DNA of 64,000 nucleotides, taken from assembly GCF_024223415.1 (NCBI RefSeq), contig NZ_CP100502.1, one strand, 5' to 3'. This DNA is from Escherichia coli. GTDB taxonomy: Bacteria; Pseudomonadota; Gammaproteobacteria; Enterobacterales; Enterobacteriaceae. Of this stretch, positions 6,185-31,360 are shown one piece after another. The notes under the pieces were generated by a model. That model did no database searches. It was not told where the DNA came from and was given only the letters and a program-made list of their open reading frames with translations. Positions within the stretch are counted from its first letter, which is position 1; the number at the start of each line of letters is the position of its first letter. Position numbers and translations under genes: made by a program.

Positions 6185-7111
6185 ATGCCAAACTGGTGCT
6201 CGAATCGTATGTATTTTTCTGGTGAACCGGCACAGATCGCTGAGATTAAACGACTGGCCAGCGGTGCAGTTACACCGCTTTATCGCCGCGCCACAAATGA
6301 AGGTATTCAGCTGTTTCTGGCCGGAAGTGCCGGACTTCTGCAGATCACTGAAAATATCCGCTCTGAACAGTGCCCCGGAGTGACGGCTGCCGGACGTGGT
6401 GCTGTATCGACGGAAAATATCGCGTTCACCCGCTGGCTGACACACCTGCAGAACGGTGTACTGCTGGATGAGCAAAACTGCCTGATGCTGCATGAACTCT
6501 GGCTGCAGAGCGGTACTGGACAGCGTCGCTGGGAAGGATTACCGGATGATGTCAGGGAAACCATCACTGTGCATTTCACCGCAAAAAGAGGTGACTGGTG
6601 TGACATCTGGGGTAGCGAGGATGTATCGGTGTGGTGGAACCGTCTGTGTGACAACGTAGTGCCGGAAAAAACCATGCCGTTTGACCTGCTGACGGTTCTG
6701 CCGACCCGCCTGGATGTTGAAGTGAATGGCTTTAATGGTGGTGTTCTGAACGGTGTTCCTTCTGCATATCACTGGTATACAGAACGGTATGGCGTGAAGT
6801 GGCCTTGTGGGTATGACCTGAATATCAGTAGTCAGGGAGACAACTGCATTCAGGTGGATTTCGACACGCCGTGGTGTCAGCCGGAAAGCGACGTTGTTGC
6901 AGCATTAAGCCGCCGTTTCGGCTGCACGCTGGAGCACTGGTACGCCGAACAGGGCTGCAATTTCTGTGGCTGGCAGTTGTATGAGCGCGGAGAGCTCGTT
7001 GATGTGCTCTGGGGGGAACTGGAATGGTCTTCCCCGACAGATGACGATGAGCTGCCGGAAGTCACCGGACCTGCGTGGATAGTCGACAAGGTGGCGCATT
7101 ACGGGGGATGA
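6185..7111 (+). CDS. Hypothetical Cys/Trp-rich protein
   Basis: seq: GAGAGGAG RBS before ATG 6185 (track ORF from 6140); many Cys and Trp ('NWCSNRMYF', 'FGCTLEHWYAEQGCNFCGWQ'); no motif I can name. Confidence 0.5.
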   Translation: MPNWCSNRMYFSGEPAQIAEIKRLASGAVTPLYRRATNEGIQLFLAGSAGLLQITENIRSEQCPGVTAAGRGAVSTENIAFTRWLTHLQNGVLLDEQNCLMLHELWLQSGTGQRRWEGLPDDVRETITVHFTAKRGDWCDIWGSEDVSVWWNRLCDNVVPEKTMPFDLLTVLPTRLDVEVNGFNGGVLNGVPSAYHWYTERYGVKWPCGYDLNISSQGDNCIQVDFDTPWCQPESDVVAALSRRFGCTLEHWYAEQGCNFCGWQLYERGELVDVLWGELEWSSPTDDDELPEVTGPAWIVDKVAHYGG

Positions 7112-7123
7112 AGTATGACGGAG

Positions 7124-7150
7124 ACGGGCGGGCAACCGCCCGTTTCTTTT
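7124..7150 (+). terminator. Rho-independent terminator
   Basis: seq: stem 'acgggcgg'/'ccgcccgt' with loop 'gcaa', then 'ttctttt', 13 nt after the stop of the 6185..7111 ORF. Confidence 0.55.
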
Positions 7151-7490
7151 CCGACAAAGGATGTCGCCGTGCTCCTCTGTTTACTGCGCCGGCTGATGCG
7201 GCGCGGCATAAACGCTGCCTGTGGTCAGTGTCCCGCGTCCGGCGGGCACGGGACGGGCGCTTTTACCGCTCCCGGCTGGCGTCGGTGACAGTGTACGCCA
7301 GCCTGTCGCCCTTTTCTGATGAACGCCCTTCAAGCCGCTTTCGCGGCATATTCTCGCCGTCAAAAAGACGACGGCTGCGATATTCCACGGTCGGCCTGAC
7401 CCGTTACCGGACGCGGTGAACAGCCCACAGGCAGCGGGGAACGGGCACCACAGGGGTGCCCTCCCGGTGCCCTCTGAGAAAGAAGGAGTG
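7150..7490. repeat. GC-rich hairpin-rich non-coding region (possible diverged ssi-like element) upstream of the methyltransferase
   Basis: seq: 340 nt with several hairpins (e.g. 'gggcaccacaggggtgccc') and weak resemblance to family B ('cgctcccggctggcg'). Confidence 0.2.
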
Positions 7491-7495
7491 TTGTT

Positions 7496-8179
7496 ATGTC
7501 CCGTTTTGTCCTCGGTAACTGCATTGATGTTATGGCGCGTATTCCTGATAACGGCATTGATTTCATACTGACTGACCCGCCATACCTCGTCGGTTTTCGT
7601 GACCGACAGGGGCGTACCATCGCCGGCGATAAAACCGATGAATGGCTGCAACCAGCCTGTAATGAAATGTATCGCGTACTCAAAAAAGATGCGCTGATGG
7701 TCAGCTTCTACGGCTGGAACCGCGTCGATCGCTTTATGGCCGCCTGGAAAAATGCGGGATTCAGTGTGGTTGGGCACCTGGTCTTCACCAAAAACTACAC
7801 ATCGAAGGCCGCATATGTGGGTTATCGCCACGAATGCGCCTACGTTCTGGCAAAAGGCCGTCCGGCGCTGCCTCAGAAGCCATTACCCGACGTGCTGGGC
7901 TGGAAATATTCAGGCAATCGTCATCACCCGACGGAAAAGCCTGTTACCAGCCTGCAACCACTGATTGAGAGCTTCACACATCCGAACGCGATTGTGCTGG
8001 ACCCGTTTGCAGGCAGCGGCTCAACCTGCGTGGCTGCCCTTCAGTCCGGACGCCGGTATATCGGTATCGAGCTGCTTGAGCAGTATCACCGTGCCGGACA
8101 GCAACGTCTGGCTGCCGTACAGCGGGCCATGCAGCAGGGGGCCGCAAATGATGACTGGTTTATGCCGGAGGCTGCGTAA
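7496..8179 (+). CDS. Orphan DNA adenine (N6) methyltransferase
   Basis: seq: 227 aa with 'FILTDPPY' (motif IV, DPPY) and 'DPFAGSGST' (AdoMet-binding motif I); GAAGGAG RBS. known: orphan MTases are common in plasmid leading regions. Confidence 0.85.
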   Translation: MSRFVLGNCIDVMARIPDNGIDFILTDPPYLVGFRDRQGRTIAGDKTDEWLQPACNEMYRVLKKDALMVSFYGWNRVDRFMAAWKNAGFSVVGHLVFTKNYTSKAAYVGYRHECAYVLAKGRPALPQKPLPDVLGWKYSGNRHHPTEKPVTSLQPLIESFTHPNAIVLDPFAGSGSTCVAALQSGRRYIGIELLEQYHRAGQQRLAAVQRAMQQGAANDDWFMPEAA

Positions 8180-8401
8180 ATGAACTATGCCGGACATGAA
8201 AAACTTCGCGCCGAAGTGGCGGAGGTGGCCAATGCCATGTGCGACCTGCGTACAACCATGAATGAGATGGAGCGGCGGTACAGCTTTAATGCTGACACCC
8301 TGCCGGAACGTCTGGTGCGTCAGACGTTGTTTCGCGCAAACCGCCTCCTGATGGAGGCATATACCGAAATTCTGGAACTGGATTCCTGCTTCAAAGATTG
8401 A
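8180..8401 (+). CDS. Hypothetical small protein
   Basis: seq: 73-aa ORF whose ATG directly follows the methyltransferase stop codon. Confidence 0.4.
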   Translation: MNYAGHEKLRAEVAEVANAMCDLRTTMNEMERRYSFNADTLPERLVRQTLFRANRLLMEAYTEILELDSCFKD

Positions 8402-8412
8402 GGGGAGAGAGT

Positions 8413-8847
8413 ATGTACGGAACATGCGAAATACTCTGCCGGGAGCTGGCAGCAAAGTATCCGGCAGACACGCCACTGATGCTGGTTGTCTGGTCCCCTG
8501 AAGAGATTCAGGCCCTCGCTGACGGAATGGATATTTCCCTGTCCGATCATGAAATCAGGACCGTCCTGGCGCGCCTGGAGGACATCCCGGAAGACCAGCG
8601 GATTGAGTCCGGTATTTCTTCCGGCGTGGCGATGGAGATTATCAGCAACGTGAGAGAAAACCGCCAGGTGACCGTCCCTGCTGAACTGCTGGCGTCCCTG
8701 ATTCAGACCGCTGAACAGGCACTGTGGAAACGTGAATGGGCCGCCCGTGATAACGGCCTTGCCGTCCCGGAATGTGTTACCCGCCGTCAGGCAGTGATTA
8801 ATCAGGCCCGCACCCTGCTGAAAAACAACACACACGAAAACAACTGA
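8413..8847 (+). CDS. Hypothetical protein, paralog of the 10558..10980 ORF
   Basis: seq: GAGGGGAGAGAG RBS before ATG 8413; 'MYGTCEIL...[14 protein letters not shown]...[17 protein letters not shown]' aligns with 'MYCTVKEI...SDDELETVMQRLDD...RHVTVPAMMLEKVMALA'. Confidence 0.5.
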
Positions 8848-8897
8848 TGTTATCGCCGCCTGCCCTGCGGGCGGCGATACAGGGAGAACGCTTAATC

Positions 8898-9668
8898 ATG
8901 AACAAAACGCTGAATGCACTGGTTTGTCGTCACGCCCGTAACCTGCTGCTGGCGCAGGGCTGGCCGGAAGAGACGGATGTTGACCAGCGAAATCCGAACT
9001 ATCCGGGCTGGATCAGCATTTACGTGCGGCTGGATGCGCCCCGGCTGGCGACGTTACTTATCAACCGTCACGGCGGCGTACTGCCGCCGCTCCTGGCCTC
9101 CGCCATTCAGAGACTGACCGGAACCGGGGCGGAACTGGTACTGTCCGGCAGTCAGTGGCAGTCGCTGCCGGTACTTCCGGCAGACGGAACGCAGGTGTCT
9201 TTCCCGTATGCCGGAGAATGGCTGACCGAAGACGAAATCAGGGCTGTTCTTGATGCGGTGCACGATGCGGTACGAAGCATCTGTTACCAGGTGGCAGAAG
9301 ATGCGCGGCGTATCCGTGCGGCGCTGACCACCACCGGTCAGACGTTGCTGACCCGCCAGACGCGCCGCTTTCGCCTGGTCGTGAAGGAAAGCGATCACCC
9401 CTGCTGGCTCGATGAAGATGACGAAAACCTGCCCGTGGTGCTCGATGCCATCGTGAACCGGGGAGCACGTTTTTCGTCGGTGGAAATGTACCTGGTCAGC
9501 GATTGTATTGAGCATATCCTGTCCTGTGGGCTGGCCTGCGATGTGCTGCGTATACCCGATGAACCGCCCCGCCGCTGGTTTGACCGTGGTGTTCTGCGGG
9601 AGGTGGTCCGGGAAGCCCGGACCGAAATCCGCAGCATGGCGGATGCCCTGGCAAAAATCCGGAAATGA
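8898..9668 (+). CDS. Hypothetical protein
   Basis: seq: GGGAGA RBS before ATG 8898 (track ORF from 8847, overlapping the previous stop); last gene of a four-gene cluster. Confidence 0.45.
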
Positions 9669-9726
9669 TGACACTGGCGGGGTAAATCCCCGCCTTTTTC
9701 CTGCCGGTCCCCGGACAGAGCACAAA

Positions 9727-10057
9727 GGAAGTCGCCGCCGGCTCCGCTTTACCCGGCCATGCGGGGCATGGCCTTGTGGGTTTTCAGTTATGTGGCCACC
9801 GTGTCGTGTGCGGGCTGTGCCGTGCCTCCATCTTAGCCGGGCTGGCAGGGATGCAAGGGTACGCTTCGCCGCTGCGGTCACCCGGTCCCTCCTTCCCGTC
9901 TGCCGTGATTTTCCGGTCGTTCACCCGCTCAGATTTCGCGGTCTCACCCTCCAACTCCCGCCAGCCGTGTGCGTCAGGCTGCGGCTTCCCTTGCGCCCTG
10001 TGCATCCCCGCCTTATCGCCCGGCTTTTATGGAGGCACGGCACCGCCCGGTGTCGCG
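9727..10057 (+). repeat. Family-A ssi/Frpo-like repeat, copy A1
   Basis: seq: about 330 nt nearly identical to 16711..17041, GC-rich and hairpin-rich, ending about 30 nt before a gene start. known: IncI1 and F leading regions carry ssi/Frpo single-strand promoters. Confidence 0.6.
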
Positions 10058-10085
10058 GAATATGTGAACAACGGAGGAATACATC

Positions 10086-10511
10086 ATGCAATATGCGAAA
10101 CCTGTCACTCTGAATGTTGAAGAGTGCGACCGTCTGTTTTTTCTGCCTTACCTGTTTGGCCAGGATTTTCTGTATGTCGAAGCGTCTGTGTACGCGCTGG
10201 CGAAAAAAATGATGCCGGAATATGAAGGCGGATTCTGGCACTTCATCCGCCTGCCGGACGGTGGCGGCTACATGATGCCGGATGGCGACCGTTTCCACAT
10301 AGTGAACGGTGCAAACTGGTTTGACCGTACCGTGAGTGCTGATGCCTGCGGCATCATTCTGACTTCCCTTGTGATTAACCGCCAGTTGTGGCTGTACCAC
10401 GACAGCGGTGATGCAGGACTGACCCAGCTTTACCGGATGCGCGATGCGCAGTTGTGGCGTCACATCGAATTTCACCCTGAATGCAACGCGATTTACGCGG
10501 CTCTGGACTGA
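10086..10511 (+). CDS. klcA: KlcA/ArdB-family antirestriction protein
   Basis: seq: 141 aa, '[51 protein letters not shown]' resembles KlcA/ArdB from memory; GGAGG RBS. Confidence 0.65.
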
Positions 10512-10557: not shown

Positions 10558-10980
10558 ATGTACTGTACTGTTAAAGAAATTATCCGCGAAGTGCTGGATA
10601 CAGACGTGCCGGACAGTGAATGCGTTTTTGCCGTGGTGCTGACCCGTGGGGATGTGCGTCACATAGCCCAGGACTGGAACCTGTCAGACGATGAGCTGGA
10701 AACCGTCATGCAGCGGCTGGACGATGCCTTTGAGCATGGTGCGGATGTCAGCGTTGTTCACGACGTTGTTCGTGAACTGATGGAAGAAAAGCGCGCCAGC
10801 CGTCATGTGACAGTCCCGGCGATGATGCTGGAAAAAGTGATGGCGCTGGCAGGCAGTGAAATGAAGCGCCTGTATGCCGTCGGAAGTGAGAACGGGGGCG
10901 ACGGTGACGCATTCGTCAGGGAGGAACGCGAAGCAATGGACGTTGTGTTACAGGCGCTGGACGGGGAGACGATGTCATGA
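10558..10980 (+). CDS. Hypothetical protein, paralog of the 8413..8847 ORF
   Basis: seq: AAGGAG RBS; shared blocks with the 8413 ORF (see there). Confidence 0.5.
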   Translation: MYCTVKEIIREVLDTDVPDSECVFAVVLTRGDVRHIAQDWNLSDDELETVMQRLDDAFEHGADVSVVHDVVRELMEEKRASRHVTVPAMMLEKVMALAGSEMKRLYAVGSENGGDGDAFVREEREAMDVVLQALDGETMS

Positions 10981-11168
10981 ATATCAGCACAGAAACCCGC
11001 GAAATTCTGCGTAATTACAGGGCCGTGATTAATGCGCGGCGTCGTGAAATGGGGCAGAAACCGCTCACCACCGCGCAGATTGTTGATGAAATCTGCGATT
11101 TTGTGGCGAATCAGCAGGCGGTTTTCCTGGGCGGTCACTACATCTTACAGGGCAGCAGAAACAGGTGA
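10977..11168 (+). CDS. Hypothetical small protein
   Basis: seq: 63-aa ORF overlapping the preceding stop (ATGA). Confidence 0.3.
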   Translation: MNISTETREILRNYRAVINARRREMGQKPLTTAQIVDEICDFVANQQAVFLGGHYILQGSRNR

Positions 11169-30353: not shown

Positions 30354-30505
30354 GACAAAGTCTCCATTTCTGGAATTTAAATCAAACGGAAAGGTTAAAA
30401 ATTTATTTGCAGGCGATAAGAGCTAACCAGAGGAATTAGCCGTGCGATAAAAGGATTGTTGCAGATACGAAAGTCGTTAGAATAGCTGCGGGCGCTTGAG
30501 GCTGT

Positions 30506-30790
30506 ATGCCGAAAGCGTTTTGTGGACGGTATACAGCAGAAAGCCCCTGGAGATTTTTTTATCAATCAACCAAGGGCTCTACTGTAATGCCTAGACAACA
30601 TTATAGTAGCCCGATAACCGCCGTAAGGCAATGGAGGGGCTATGATGCCACAGCGAACGTTTTTAATGATGTTAATCGTCATCTGTGTGACGATTCTGTG
30701 TTTTGTCTGGATGGTGAGGGATTCGCTTTGCGGACTCCGGCTCCAGCAGGGAAACACAGTGCTTGTGGCAACGTTAGCCTACGAAGTTAA
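30506..30790 (+). CDS. pndC: pndC (mok-like) overlapping reading frame
   Basis: seq: ORF overlapping pndA in another frame and ending 7 nt before its stop, as in hok/mok loci. Confidence 0.45.
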   Translation: MPKAFCGRYTAESPWRFFYQSTKGSTVMPRQHYSSPITAVRQWRGYDATANVFNDVNRHLCDDSVFCLDGEGFALRTPAPAGKHSACGNVSLRS

Positions 30791-31263: not shown

Positions 31264-31294
31264 CAACAGATGTAAAAAAACCGACTGGTGAGGT
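31264..31294. terminator. Bidirectional Rho-independent terminator
   Basis: seq: 'aaaaaaaccgacTGGTGAGgtcggttttttt', 6-bp stem flanked by an A-run and a T-run. Confidence 0.6.
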
Positions 31295-31336
31295 CGGTTT
31301 TTTTACTGTTCCGTTACAGAGTGGGTGGCCCTGACC

Positions 31337-31360
31337 GGAGGAAATCTCTTTTCAACTAAC
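31337..31360 (+). repeat. 24-bp direct repeat copy 1 (ggaggaaatctcttttcaactaac)
   Basis: seq: repeated at 31524..31547 with one mismatch; followed by TATAAT-like hexamers at 31366 and 31403; its first 10 nt are the reverse complement of 31593..31602. Confidence 0.8.

What the first reader, a model, noticed from the sequence alone, without database searches (positions are those of the whole stretch)
7496..9668. Orphan adenine methyltransferase translationally coupled to three unknown genes
The DPPY methyltransferase (7496..8179) is followed without gaps by ORFs of 73, 144 and 256 aa whose starts abut or overlap the preceding stops (8179/8180, 8401/8413, 8847/8898). Such tight coupling implies a functional unit. 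Orphan methyltransferases in leading regions are thought to pre-methylate incoming DNA, but the three partners have no obvious function and one has a paralog in the neighbouring klcA operon.
Basis: partly seen in the sequence, partly recalled or inferred. Interest (0 to 1): 0.55.

Follow-up and report, generated by a model that had tools for sequence, protein, structure and literature searches.

The report
Known plasmid entry-methylase operon (M.EcoGIX)
This is the already-described four-gene operon that IncI/IncF resistance plasmids switch on as they enter a new cell; its first gene is a studied DNA methylase that shields the plasmid from restriction enzymes, and its three very common companion genes still have no known function.

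Summary
The ORFs are real and at the stated coordinates. Only the methylase/73-aa junction abuts (TAAATG); the next two junctions have gaps of 11 and 50 nt.

The window is an IncI-gamma/K1 plasmid. The block is the M.EcoGIX (YfbB/YubD)–YubE–YubF(DUF1380)–YubG(YchA) operon. The methylase is 94% identical to M.EcoGIX, a published single-strand-specific, promiscuous m6A enzyme that protects pESBL from restriction in recipients. The upstream 384 nt are 96% identical to pESBL's published single-stranded-DNA promoter region. A terminator-like hairpin with a T run follows YubG.

The block occurs in 58% of complete E. coli genomes. All four genes are intact in five compared plasmids, with dN/dS of 0.07–0.38 wherever dS was measurable.

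New here:
- A YubE gene sits on the methylase stop codon in 15/15 canonical loci from different species.
- DUF1380 and YubG are separable modules. YubG is missing in 5 of those 15 loci, and distant YubG relatives stand alone beside ardA/klcA.
- The 62%-identical, characterised M.BceJIII has unrelated downstream genes.
- YubG gives a confident AlphaFold model with no known structural relative.

Verdict: already known as an operon; partner functions remain open; "obligate functional unit" is not supported except possibly for YubE.

The parts
7112..7495 (-). Structured single-stranded-DNA promoter region (transferred/template strand), the 'class 3' ssDNA promoter of the M.EcoGIX operon
   Evidence: The minus strand folds as ssDNA at -109.4 kcal/mol, z -7.0, with 0 of 100 shuffles as good. 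RNAalifold over 6 loci gives 104 pairs, 22 with compensatory double changes. The region is 96% identical over 384 nt to pESBL, where 5'RACE mapped a start site (PMC12672017). No sigma-70 dsDNA promoter match was found in 6900-10200.
7496..8179 (+). Orphan beta-class N6-adenine DNA methyltransferase, ortholog of M.EcoGIX (YfbB in R64; YfeA in F per PMC4288162)
   Evidence: 94.3% aa identity to pESBL M.EcoGIX. NF010253 at 500 bits. DPPY comes before FxGxG in the sequence. PDB relatives are CcrM, RsrI and DpnA. dN/dS is 0.07-0.10.
8180..8401 (+). YubE family protein (73 aa; Hp9 of pESBL), translationally coupled to the methylase
   Evidence: The stop and start abut (TAAATG). Relatives carry PF27407:YubE. 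A YubE gene lies at gap 0, -1 or -4 after the MTase in 15/15 canonical loci from different species. dN/dS is 0.11-0.35. Hits phrog_4830, function unknown.
8413..8847 (+). DUF1380 protein (YubF/YfcB; Hp10 of pESBL), 144 aa
   Evidence: PF07128 at E 9e-54. Own SD sequence GGGGAGAG, 11-nt gap. The conserved MYGT N-terminus fixes the start. dN/dS is 0.20-0.36. The AlphaFold model is all-helical but low-confidence, pLDDT 66.
8851..8879 (+). Intercistronic GC-rich stem-loop (13 bp, 3-nt loop) without a U tract
   Evidence: -26.2 kcal/mol, z -3.8. A hairpin of different sequence occupies the same spacer in 13/13 distinct DUF1380-YubG spacers.
8898..9668 (+). YubG/YchA family protein (Hp11 of pESBL), 256 aa
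9676..9701 (+). Intrinsic-terminator-like site closing the operon
   Evidence: GGCGGGGTAAATCCCCGCC followed by TTTTTCC, 8 nt after the YubG stop.
10558..10980 (+). DUF1380 paralog (Hp12) in the neighbouring klcA operon (context, not part of the operon)
   Evidence: 29% identity and E 2e-10 to the 144-aa protein. The region 9669-10085 upstream of klcA is also structured as ssDNA, z -4.5.

Best explanation
This is the M.EcoGIX (yfbB/yubD)-yubE-yubF-yubG operon of the IncI/IncF leading region.

Shown elsewhere for near-identical DNA:
- When the transferred strand enters a recipient, the roughly 380-nt region upstream folds into a branched hairpin that acts as a promoter on single-stranded DNA.
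- The operon is transcribed toward oriT, which lies about 15 kb downstream.
- Expression falls with longer conjugation time, and the published model is that transcription ceases once the complementary strand flattens the hairpin.
- The methylase puts m6A at degenerate SAY sites on single strands, so restriction enzymes in the new host cut the resulting duplex less.

Inferred here:
- YubE is produced by translational coupling to the methylase. It is its specific companion, acting either as a stabilising or targeting subunit or as a brake or antidote for the side effects of promiscuous methylation.
- DUF1380 (YubF) and YubG are separate, fast-evolving, non-enzymatic establishment or anti-defence modules. 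They share the zygotic promoter but do not need the methylase.
- The conserved hairpin before yubG probably sets different mRNA stability or expression for the first three genes and for yubG.
For: Identity and synteny:
- MTase 94.3%, YubE 97%, DUF1380 92% and YubG 92% identical to pESBL Hp9-11, in the same order.
- The upstream region is 96% identical to pESBL.

ssDNA promoter and operon limits:
- Fold and covariation support.
- No dsDNA promoter in 6900-10200 and a terminator-like site after YubG.
- Published 5'RACE and RNA-seq induction: PMC12672017.

MTase biochemistry and protection:
- PMC7736820.
- PMC4288162.

Orientation toward oriT/nikA.

Selection:
- All four genes are intact in IncFII, pO157 and two diverged plasmids.
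- dN/dS is 0.07-0.38 wherever dS was measurable.

YubE linkage:
- 15/15 canonical loci from different species have YubE at gap 0, -1 or -4 after the MTase.
- Five further loci have a divergent YubE-like ORF (E 4e-8 to 5e-5 against a seven-sequence set, so these are weak).
- Independent metagenome loci L004, L009 and L015 show the same linkage.

Modularity of the others:
- YubG is absent in 5/15 canonical loci and in L015.
- YubG relatives at 24-30% identity stand alone next to ardA/klcA/DUF1281, behind their own structured spacer.
- A DUF1380 paralog lies in the klcA operon.

Fast evolution:
- The MTase stays at 71-93% identity.
- YubE falls to 33-78%, DUF1380 to 19-56% and YubG to 37-60%.

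No enzyme signature:
- No Pfam, NCBIfam, PADLOC or PDB hits for the three partners.
- The YubG fold has no known relative.
Against: - Nothing here or in the literature searched shows what YubE, DUF1380 or YubG do. No paper held two of the three gene names. Samuel 2024 lists DUF1380 only as an uncharacterized family enriched in leading regions.
- Physical interaction of YubE with the methylase was not modelled.
- The DUF1380 model is poor (pLDDT 66).
- In-frame natural DUF1380-YubG fusions occur on 15 or more contigs. This hints that these two may work together rather than independently.
- The role proposed for the intercistronic hairpin is inference only.
- pESBL Tn-seq marked Hp9-11 as non-essential for plasmid maintenance, and M.EcoGIX was not needed for transfer into a restriction-poor E. 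coli, so any partner phenotype may be conditional.
Confidence: 0.72

Rival explanations
1. All four proteins form one obligate machine. The three partners would be subunits that the methylase needs in order to recognise or protect the incoming strand.
For: - One promoter and one terminator.
- The MTase-YubE-DUF1380 order is kept in 15/15 canonical loci.
- Methylase activity is lost on purification unless Pol I is associated or fused. This leaves room for a missing native cofactor (PMC7736820).
- The published knockout was a cassette replacement, with no complementation found in the text.
Against: - The MTase ORF cloned alone methylates SAY on single strands in vivo.
- M.BceJIII, 62% identical and with the same activity, has unrelated downstream genes.
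- YubG is missing in 5/15 loci and in L015.
- YubG-like genes stand alone without any MTase.
- DUF1380 also sits in the klcA operon.
Confidence: 0.08
2. The partners deal with the costs of promiscuous m6A rather than with classical restriction. One or more of them would block modification-dependent (Type IV, Mrr-like) nucleases. Alternatively, they would confine the methylase to the incoming strand so that the host chromosome is spared.
For: - Plasmids carrying M.EcoGIX alone are restricted 10- to 10,000-fold by EcoKMrr, and survivors carry MTase mutations (PMC7736820).
- In contrast, native pESBL transfers into an MG1655 derivative largely unaffected when EcoGIII is absent.
- YubE sits on the MTase stop codon throughout Enterobacterales.
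Against: - No similarity to any known anti-restriction protein.
- None of the partners is strongly acidic or looks like a DNA mimic (YubE net charge -3, YubG -3).
- Transient low expression and hemimethylation might by themselves avoid Mrr.
- The Mrr status of the recipients used in the cited crosses was not checked here.
Confidence: 0.12
3. The partners act in DNA processing of the incoming strand (priming, Pol I recruitment, timing of complementary-strand synthesis) rather than in anti-defence.
For: - The methylase associates with Pol I.
- Leading-region conversion to duplex is actively delayed in F (bioRxiv 2026.01.09.698686).
- The neighbours are ssb, psiB and a ParB-like gene.
Against: - The F delay is attributed to the ssDNA promoter structure and UvrD, not to a plasmid protein.
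- No nucleic-acid-binding domain was detected in any of the three.
- Rapid sequence divergence is unusual for proteins that bind conserved replication factors.
Confidence: 0.06
4. The three ORFs are non-functional passengers or annotation artefacts.
For: - No known domains beyond DUFs.
- Not required for pESBL maintenance in Tn-seq.
- Truncated or fused variants exist.
Against: - dN/dS is 0.11-0.38 where measurable, and reading frames stay intact at dS above 1.6.
- Tens of thousands of full-length copies are on record.
- The YubG AlphaFold model is confident, pLDDT 91.7.
- The pESBL operon is reported as induced in transconjugants; gene-level data for Hp9-11 were not available.
Confidence: 0.02

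Closest known systems
M.EcoGIX operon of pESBL (E. coli O104:H4): M.EcoGIX-Hp9-Hp10-Hp11(YchA); the same genes are YfbB etc. in R64 (the MTase is YfeA in F per PMC4288162)
   Same: - Gene order, sizes, junctions and upstream ssDNA promoter region are the same.
- Proteins are 92-97% identical and the promoter region is 96% identical.
- The position is the same, between DUF1281 and klcA in the leading region.
   Different: - The host plasmid here is IncI-gamma/K1 (identical over the 2,351-nt queried stretch to p9134dAT) rather than IncI1.
- YubG is 256 aa here against 258 aa in pESBL.
- Otherwise nothing differs.
M.BceJIII of Burkholderia cenocepacia pBCJ2315 (pBCA072)
   Same: - 62% identical beta-class methylase.
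- Published as having the same promiscuous SAY single-strand m6A activity.
- Lies near a ParB-like gene on a MOBF conjugative plasmid.
   Different: - The downstream genes (168, 55 and 62 aa) are unrelated to YubE, DUF1380 or YubG.
- A different 145-169-aa partner family is conserved in Burkholderia and Bordetella.
DpnA, the single-strand methylase of the DpnII system
   Same: - A DpnA-named beta-class adenine methylase is among the solved structural relatives (5hek/5hfj, E 1e-11).
- From my own knowledge, not checked here: the pneumococcal DpnA methylates incoming single-stranded DNA so that unmethylated plasmids can establish.
   Different: - DpnA is sequence-specific (GATC), chromosomal, part of a restriction cassette and competence-induced (own knowledge).
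- The enzyme here is an orphan, degenerate in specificity, plasmid-borne and driven by an ssDNA promoter.
klcA (ArdB)-DUF1380-Hp13 operon of the same leading region
   Same: - Also sits behind a structured ssDNA promoter (z -4.5; class 2 in PMC12672017).
- Also carries a DUF1380 gene directly after a known anti-restriction gene.
   Different: - The lead gene is a restriction inhibitor, not a methylase.
- There is no YubE or YubG.
- The DUF1380 copy is only 29% identical and more acidic (net charge -17).
Uncharacterized leading-region gene families of Samuel et al. 2024 (Nature 635:186)
   Same: DUF1380 is listed there as family 7 (3957 members), enriched in leading regions and labelled uncharacterized.
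   Different: That survey gives no function. It does not report the YubE-methylase linkage or the stand-alone YubG subfamily.

Membership tests
M.EcoGIX/M.BceJIII-type single-strand-specific m6A methyltransferases | Beta-class N6/N4 methylase fold with motif IV (DPPY) before motif I (FxGxG) | tested here: met
   DPPY lies at residues 27-30 and DPFAGSGST at 169-177. NF010253 at 500 bits against a cutoff of 244. PDB relatives are CcrM, RsrI and DpnA.
M.EcoGIX/M.BceJIII-type single-strand-specific m6A methyltransferases | Close sequence identity to a characterised member | tested here: met
   94.3% identical to M.EcoGIX. 62% identical to M.BceJIII.
M.EcoGIX/M.BceJIII-type single-strand-specific m6A methyltransferases | Located in the leading region, coded so that the transferred strand is the template, behind an ssDNA promoter | tested here: met
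   The gene is on the + strand and reads toward nikA/oriT about 15 kb away. The T-strand upstream region is structured, with covariation. It is 96% identical to the mapped pESBL promoter region.
M.EcoGIX/M.BceJIII-type single-strand-specific m6A methyltransferases | Promiscuous SAY methylation of single strands only; Pol I association | not testable with these tools
   Needs SMRT or nanopore methylome data and biochemistry. Published for the 94%-identical enzyme.
Type II restriction-modification system | A cognate restriction endonuclease gene next to the methylase | tested here: not met
   The neighbours are DUF1281, YubE, DUF1380, YubG and KlcA. PADLOC hits only the methylase.
YubE family (PF27407) | About 73-aa protein matching the family profile | tested here: met
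   Relatives 96-97% identical carry a precomputed PF27407 hit. L004 and L009 orthologs are labelled PF27407:YubE. The Pfam copy used by profile_search returned no match for this protein. phrog_4830 at E 5e-34.
DUF1380 (PF07128) | Full-length match to the Pfam profile | tested here: met
   E 9.1e-54, residues 1-136 against model positions 1-137 of 137.
YubG/YchA family | About 255-270-aa protein with the conserved GWP ... RxPxxPxRxWFDR ... EAR pattern | tested here: met
   The alignment of 16 members has invariant W22, A142, R153 and E164. RefSeq names orthologous genes in a block 93.8% identical at the nucleotide level 'YubG family protein'. AFDB50 top hits are YchA/YubG.
Known anti-restriction / anti-defence protein families (ArdA, ArdB/KlcA, Ocr-like mimics, Acr), considered for the three partners | Sequence or fold similarity to a characterised inhibitor | tested here: not met
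Translationally coupled gene pair | Stop of the upstream gene overlaps or abuts the start of the downstream gene, and this is conserved | tested here: met
   This holds for MTase-YubE only: TAAATG, TAATG, ATGA or GTGATG in 15/15 canonical loci. It does not hold for YubE-DUF1380 (gap 9-48 nt) or DUF1380-YubG (gap 44-67 nt).

The most novel reading that the evidence does not exclude
YubE, alone or with YubF and YubG, may be a new kind of counter-measure that makes promiscuous methylation safe. It would either inhibit m6A-dependent Type IV nucleases such as Mrr or restrain the methylase to the incoming strand. On this reading the operon is a "methylase plus antidote" pair, not a methylase with unrelated passengers. 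YubG would then be a founding member of an anti-defence fold with no solved relative.
Probability: 0.15. Interest if true: 0.7.

Novelty: already known. Interest (0 to 1): 0.3.

Why it matters
The block sits on plasmids in over half of complete E. coli genomes and in many Klebsiella, Salmonella and Shigella resistance plasmids. It is among the first genes expressed when such a plasmid enters a cell.

The methylase part is understood. The three companions are among the most common plasmid genes with no assigned function. They are plausible targets for blocking plasmid establishment.

The practical points from this work are:
- The published knockout may have been polar on all three companions.
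- YubE is the one companion that never leaves the methylase.
- YubG and DUF1380 should be tested as independent factors.

Tried and rejected
- Pfam, NCBIfam, PADLOC and PHROGs on all three partners gave only DUF or unknown families.
- PDB sequence and profile searches gave nothing.
- tblastn of YubG against the phage collection gave no match, despite the PHROG entries.
- The DUF1380 AlphaFold model was too poor to search with (pLDDT 66).
- An MTase-YubE complex was not modelled.
- The 8847 ATG as the YubG start was rejected, because it is out of frame in pO157.
- The 8398 TTG and the longer 184-aa annotations of DUF1380 were rejected, because the MYGT N-terminus is conserved.
- Homology between the Burkholderia/Bordetella downstream proteins and YubE, DUF1380 or YubG was rejected (E > 0.1).
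- An Rfam scan found no family in 7000-10100.
- Literature searches for yubE/yubF/yubG, yfcB/yfdA and DUF1380 found no functional study.
Full report
**Observation.**
The four ORFs exist as stated:
- 7496..8179, 227 aa, with DPPY at residues 27-30 and FAGSGS at 171-176.
- 8180..8401, 73 aa.
- 8413..8847, 144 aa.
- 8898..9668, 256 aa.

The junctions are not all tight. MTase/73-aa is TAA|ATG with gap 0. The second junction has an 11-nt gap with its own GGGGAGAG ribosome-binding site. The third has a 50-nt gap that holds a 13-bp GC stem-loop at 8851-8879 (-26 kcal/mol, z -3.8).

The ATG at 8847 overlaps the DUF1380 stop, but it is not the YubG start. In pO157 a 5-nt indel in the spacer puts it out of frame, and diverged loci lack it. 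The paralogy claim holds. The 144-aa protein is DUF1380 (E 9e-54). It is 29% identical (E 2e-10) to the ORF at 10558..10980 behind klcA.

**What the window is.**
The 2,351-nt stretch queried is 100% identical to Salmonella plasmid p9134dAT (IncI-gamma/K1, MOBP, MPF_I). The gene order there is:
- impCAB
- DUF1281
- methylase, 73 aa, (DUF1380), 256 aa
- klcA, DUF1380, 63 aa
- ssb, DUF905, ParB-like, psiB, psiA
- ardA

nikA lies at about window 22658, so oriT is roughly 15 kb downstream. The operon is transcribed toward it. That orientation is the one expected for genes read from the transferred strand.

**It is a named system.**
The methylase matches NF010253 at 500 bits and is 94.3% identical to M.EcoGIX of pESBL. 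The pESBL re-annotation lists the same four genes as M.EcoGIX, Hp9, Hp10 and Hp11/YchA, followed by KlcA, Hp12 and Hp13. It equates the methylase with YfbB of R64 and YfeA of F (PMC4288162). Current RefSeq annotation calls the partners "YubE family", "DUF1380 family" and "YubG family".

Published work on M.EcoGIX shows the following:
- It makes m6A at degenerate SAY sites on single strands only, is incomplete and strand-asymmetric, and associates with Pol I (PMC7736820).
- Its knockout lowers transfer into EcoRI or EcoGIII recipients by up to 1000-fold.
- Inverting oriT abolishes protection, so the enzyme must be made in the recipient.

A 2025 study mapped six operons of pESBL that are induced in transconjugants. 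It placed a "class 3" ssDNA promoter with a 5'RACE start site upstream of M.EcoGIX (PMC12672017).

**Operon limits in this window.**
- The 384 nt upstream are 96% identical to pESBL.
- The template strand folds at -109 kcal/mol (z -7.0).
- Across six loci, RNAalifold gives 104 pairs, 22 with compensatory double changes.
- No sigma-70-like duplex promoter is found in 6900-10200.
- A terminator-like hairpin with a T run (GGCGGGGTAAATCCCCGCC-TTTTT) sits 8 nt after the YubG stop.
- Rfam has nothing in this region.

**Prevalence and selection.**
- At least 5000 PLSDB plasmids carry the block at 90% nucleotide identity or more, in Escherichia, Klebsiella, Salmonella and Shigella.
- 3772 of 5426 complete E. 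coli genomes have a match, and 3158 have at least 80% of the block.
- All four genes are intact in an IncFII Klebsiella plasmid, in pO157 and in two diverged metagenomic plasmids.
- dN/dS is 0.07-0.10 for the methylase. It is 0.11-0.38 for the partners wherever dS was measurable, including one locus with dS above 1.6; for the partners in L004, dS was saturated.

These are real genes.

**Are the four a unit?**
I scanned one genome per species with a methylase profile (46 loci). I then searched the loci with local HMMs for the three partners.
- In 15 Enterobacterales-type loci the methylase is followed by YubE with gap 0, -1 or -4, in all 15. DUF1380 follows YubE in all 15. YubG follows in 10 of the 15.
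- Five further loci, with methylases 71-78% identical, have a divergent 76-83-aa ORF right after the methylase. These match a broadened YubE profile at E 4e-8 to 5e-5. The search set held only seven sequences, so the matches are weak.
- Methylases 63% identical or less (Burkholderia, Bordetella, Bradyrhizobium, Acidobacteria, Nitrospira) have none of the three partners.
- The characterised M.BceJIII (62% identical) is followed by unrelated 168-, 55- and 62-aa genes.

An exhaustive search with YubG found only 180 representative clusters among 1.84 billion proteins.
- Members at 40-41% identity keep the four-gene order.
- Members at 24-30% identity stand alone in other leading regions beside DUF1281, KlcA, ArdA and a pol III theta homolog, with no methylase. 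One sits behind its own structured spacer (z -6.4).
- L015 has methylase-YubE-DUF1380 and then runs straight into klcA.

So YubE is the methylase's constant companion, while DUF1380 and YubG are separable. The partners also diverge much faster. The methylase keeps 71-93% identity, whereas YubE falls to 33-78%, DUF1380 to 19-56% and YubG to 37-60%.

**What the partners look like.**
No Pfam, NCBIfam, PADLOC or PDB hit gives a function for any of them. PHROGs lists all three as unknown.

YubG:
- It gives a confident AlphaFold2 model from 16 sequences (pLDDT 91.7, pTM 0.84). The model has two alpha/beta halves joined by a 33-residue helix.
- AFDB50 returns only YchA/YubG/NgrC proteins of Enterobacterales.
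- BFVD gives nothing at E 0.001 or better.
- Conserved positions (W22, P23, R153, E164, R218, P220, W227, R241) do not form a recognisable catalytic motif.

DUF1380 is predicted all-helical, but with low confidence (pLDDT 66). None of the three is strongly acidic.

**Mechanism, with status.**

Shown elsewhere for near-identical DNA:
- Zygotic transcription from the ssDNA promoter.
- SAY methylation of single strands.
- Protection from Type II restriction.

Inferred here:
- YubE is made in step with the methylase and acts on or with it.
- DUF1380 and YubG are independent, fast-evolving binding proteins for establishment or anti-defence.
- A GC hairpin of varying sequence is present in 13/13 distinct DUF1380-YubG spacers and lacks a U tract. 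It probably sets differential mRNA stability or expression.

Two facts sharpen the open question.
- The published knockout replaced the first gene of the operon with a gentamicin cassette. I found no complementation in the text, so polarity on Hp9-11 is not excluded.
- Plasmids with M.EcoGIX alone are restricted 10- to 10,000-fold by the m6A-dependent nuclease EcoKMrr, so a co-expressed antidote would make sense. This is the most novel reading; I give it about 15%.

**Verdict.**
The system is already known and named. What remains unknown, and is worth testing with non-polar deletions, is the function of YubE, YubF and YubG.

Noticed in passing
window 8565-8598 (inside the DUF1380 gene); L018 1501-1534: A spacer in a type I-F CRISPR array on the chromosome of E. 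coli STEC299 (from a marmot) matches this stretch 34/34 nt. Some hosts therefore carry CRISPR memory against this leading-region gene. The two bases at the expected PAM position read CG rather than the canonical CC, so interference is unverified.
   Followed up: partly
window 7108-7419: The database annotates a 103-aa 'hypothetical protein' here. It lies entirely inside the structured, covarying ssDNA promoter element upstream of the methylase, so it is probably not a gene.
   Followed up: partly
window 8851-8879; same spacer in L004, L009, L011, L019-L035: A GC-rich stem-loop sits between DUF1380 and YubG. It is present in 13/13 distinct spacers with different sequences and has no U tract. 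Its role (RNA stability, attenuation, or a structure on the ssDNA) is unknown.
   Followed up: partly
proteins P0101, P0070 (375 aa) and P0114 (417 aa): Natural in-frame fusions exist. DUF1380(1-133)+YubG(14-256) is joined at a QAR(T/N)LL microhomology and was seen on 15 or more contigs. YubG(1-226)+SSB was seen on 82 contigs; that deletion removes the whole klcA operon.
   Followed up: partly
L013 23416-23922 (-); L041, L045, L047, L048, L051, L057: Methylases of this family in Burkholderia (including M.BceJIII) and Bordetella are followed, at gaps of -4 to +33 nt, by a different conserved 145-169-aa protein of unknown function. This may be an analogous partner.
   Followed up: partly
L005 3608-4078; L007 6443-6913; L008 5894-6364: Stand-alone YubG-like genes are preceded by a very acidic 156-aa unknown protein (pI 4.1-4.3, net charge -19 to -23). 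This composition is typical of DNA-mimic anti-restriction proteins.
   Followed up: no
window 10977-11168: The 63-aa ORF (Hp13) overlaps the stop of the DUF1380 paralog (ATGA). The klcA operon therefore also has a translationally coupled small gene behind its DUF1380 copy.
   Followed up: no
window 30490-30647 (+) and 31272-31359 (-): Rfam matches to the sok antitoxin RNA (134 bits) and an AgrB-like antisense RNA (55 bits). They lie next to the Hok and DinQ-like toxin genes beyond the relaxase region.
   Followed up: no
L022, L029 (Streptomyces morookaense), L020, L032 (Oscillospiraceae MAGs), L039 (Bacillus pumilus): Near-identical copies of this enterobacterial plasmid block appear in assemblies labelled as Gram-positive organisms. 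This is most likely contamination or mis-binning, not transfer.
   Followed up: no
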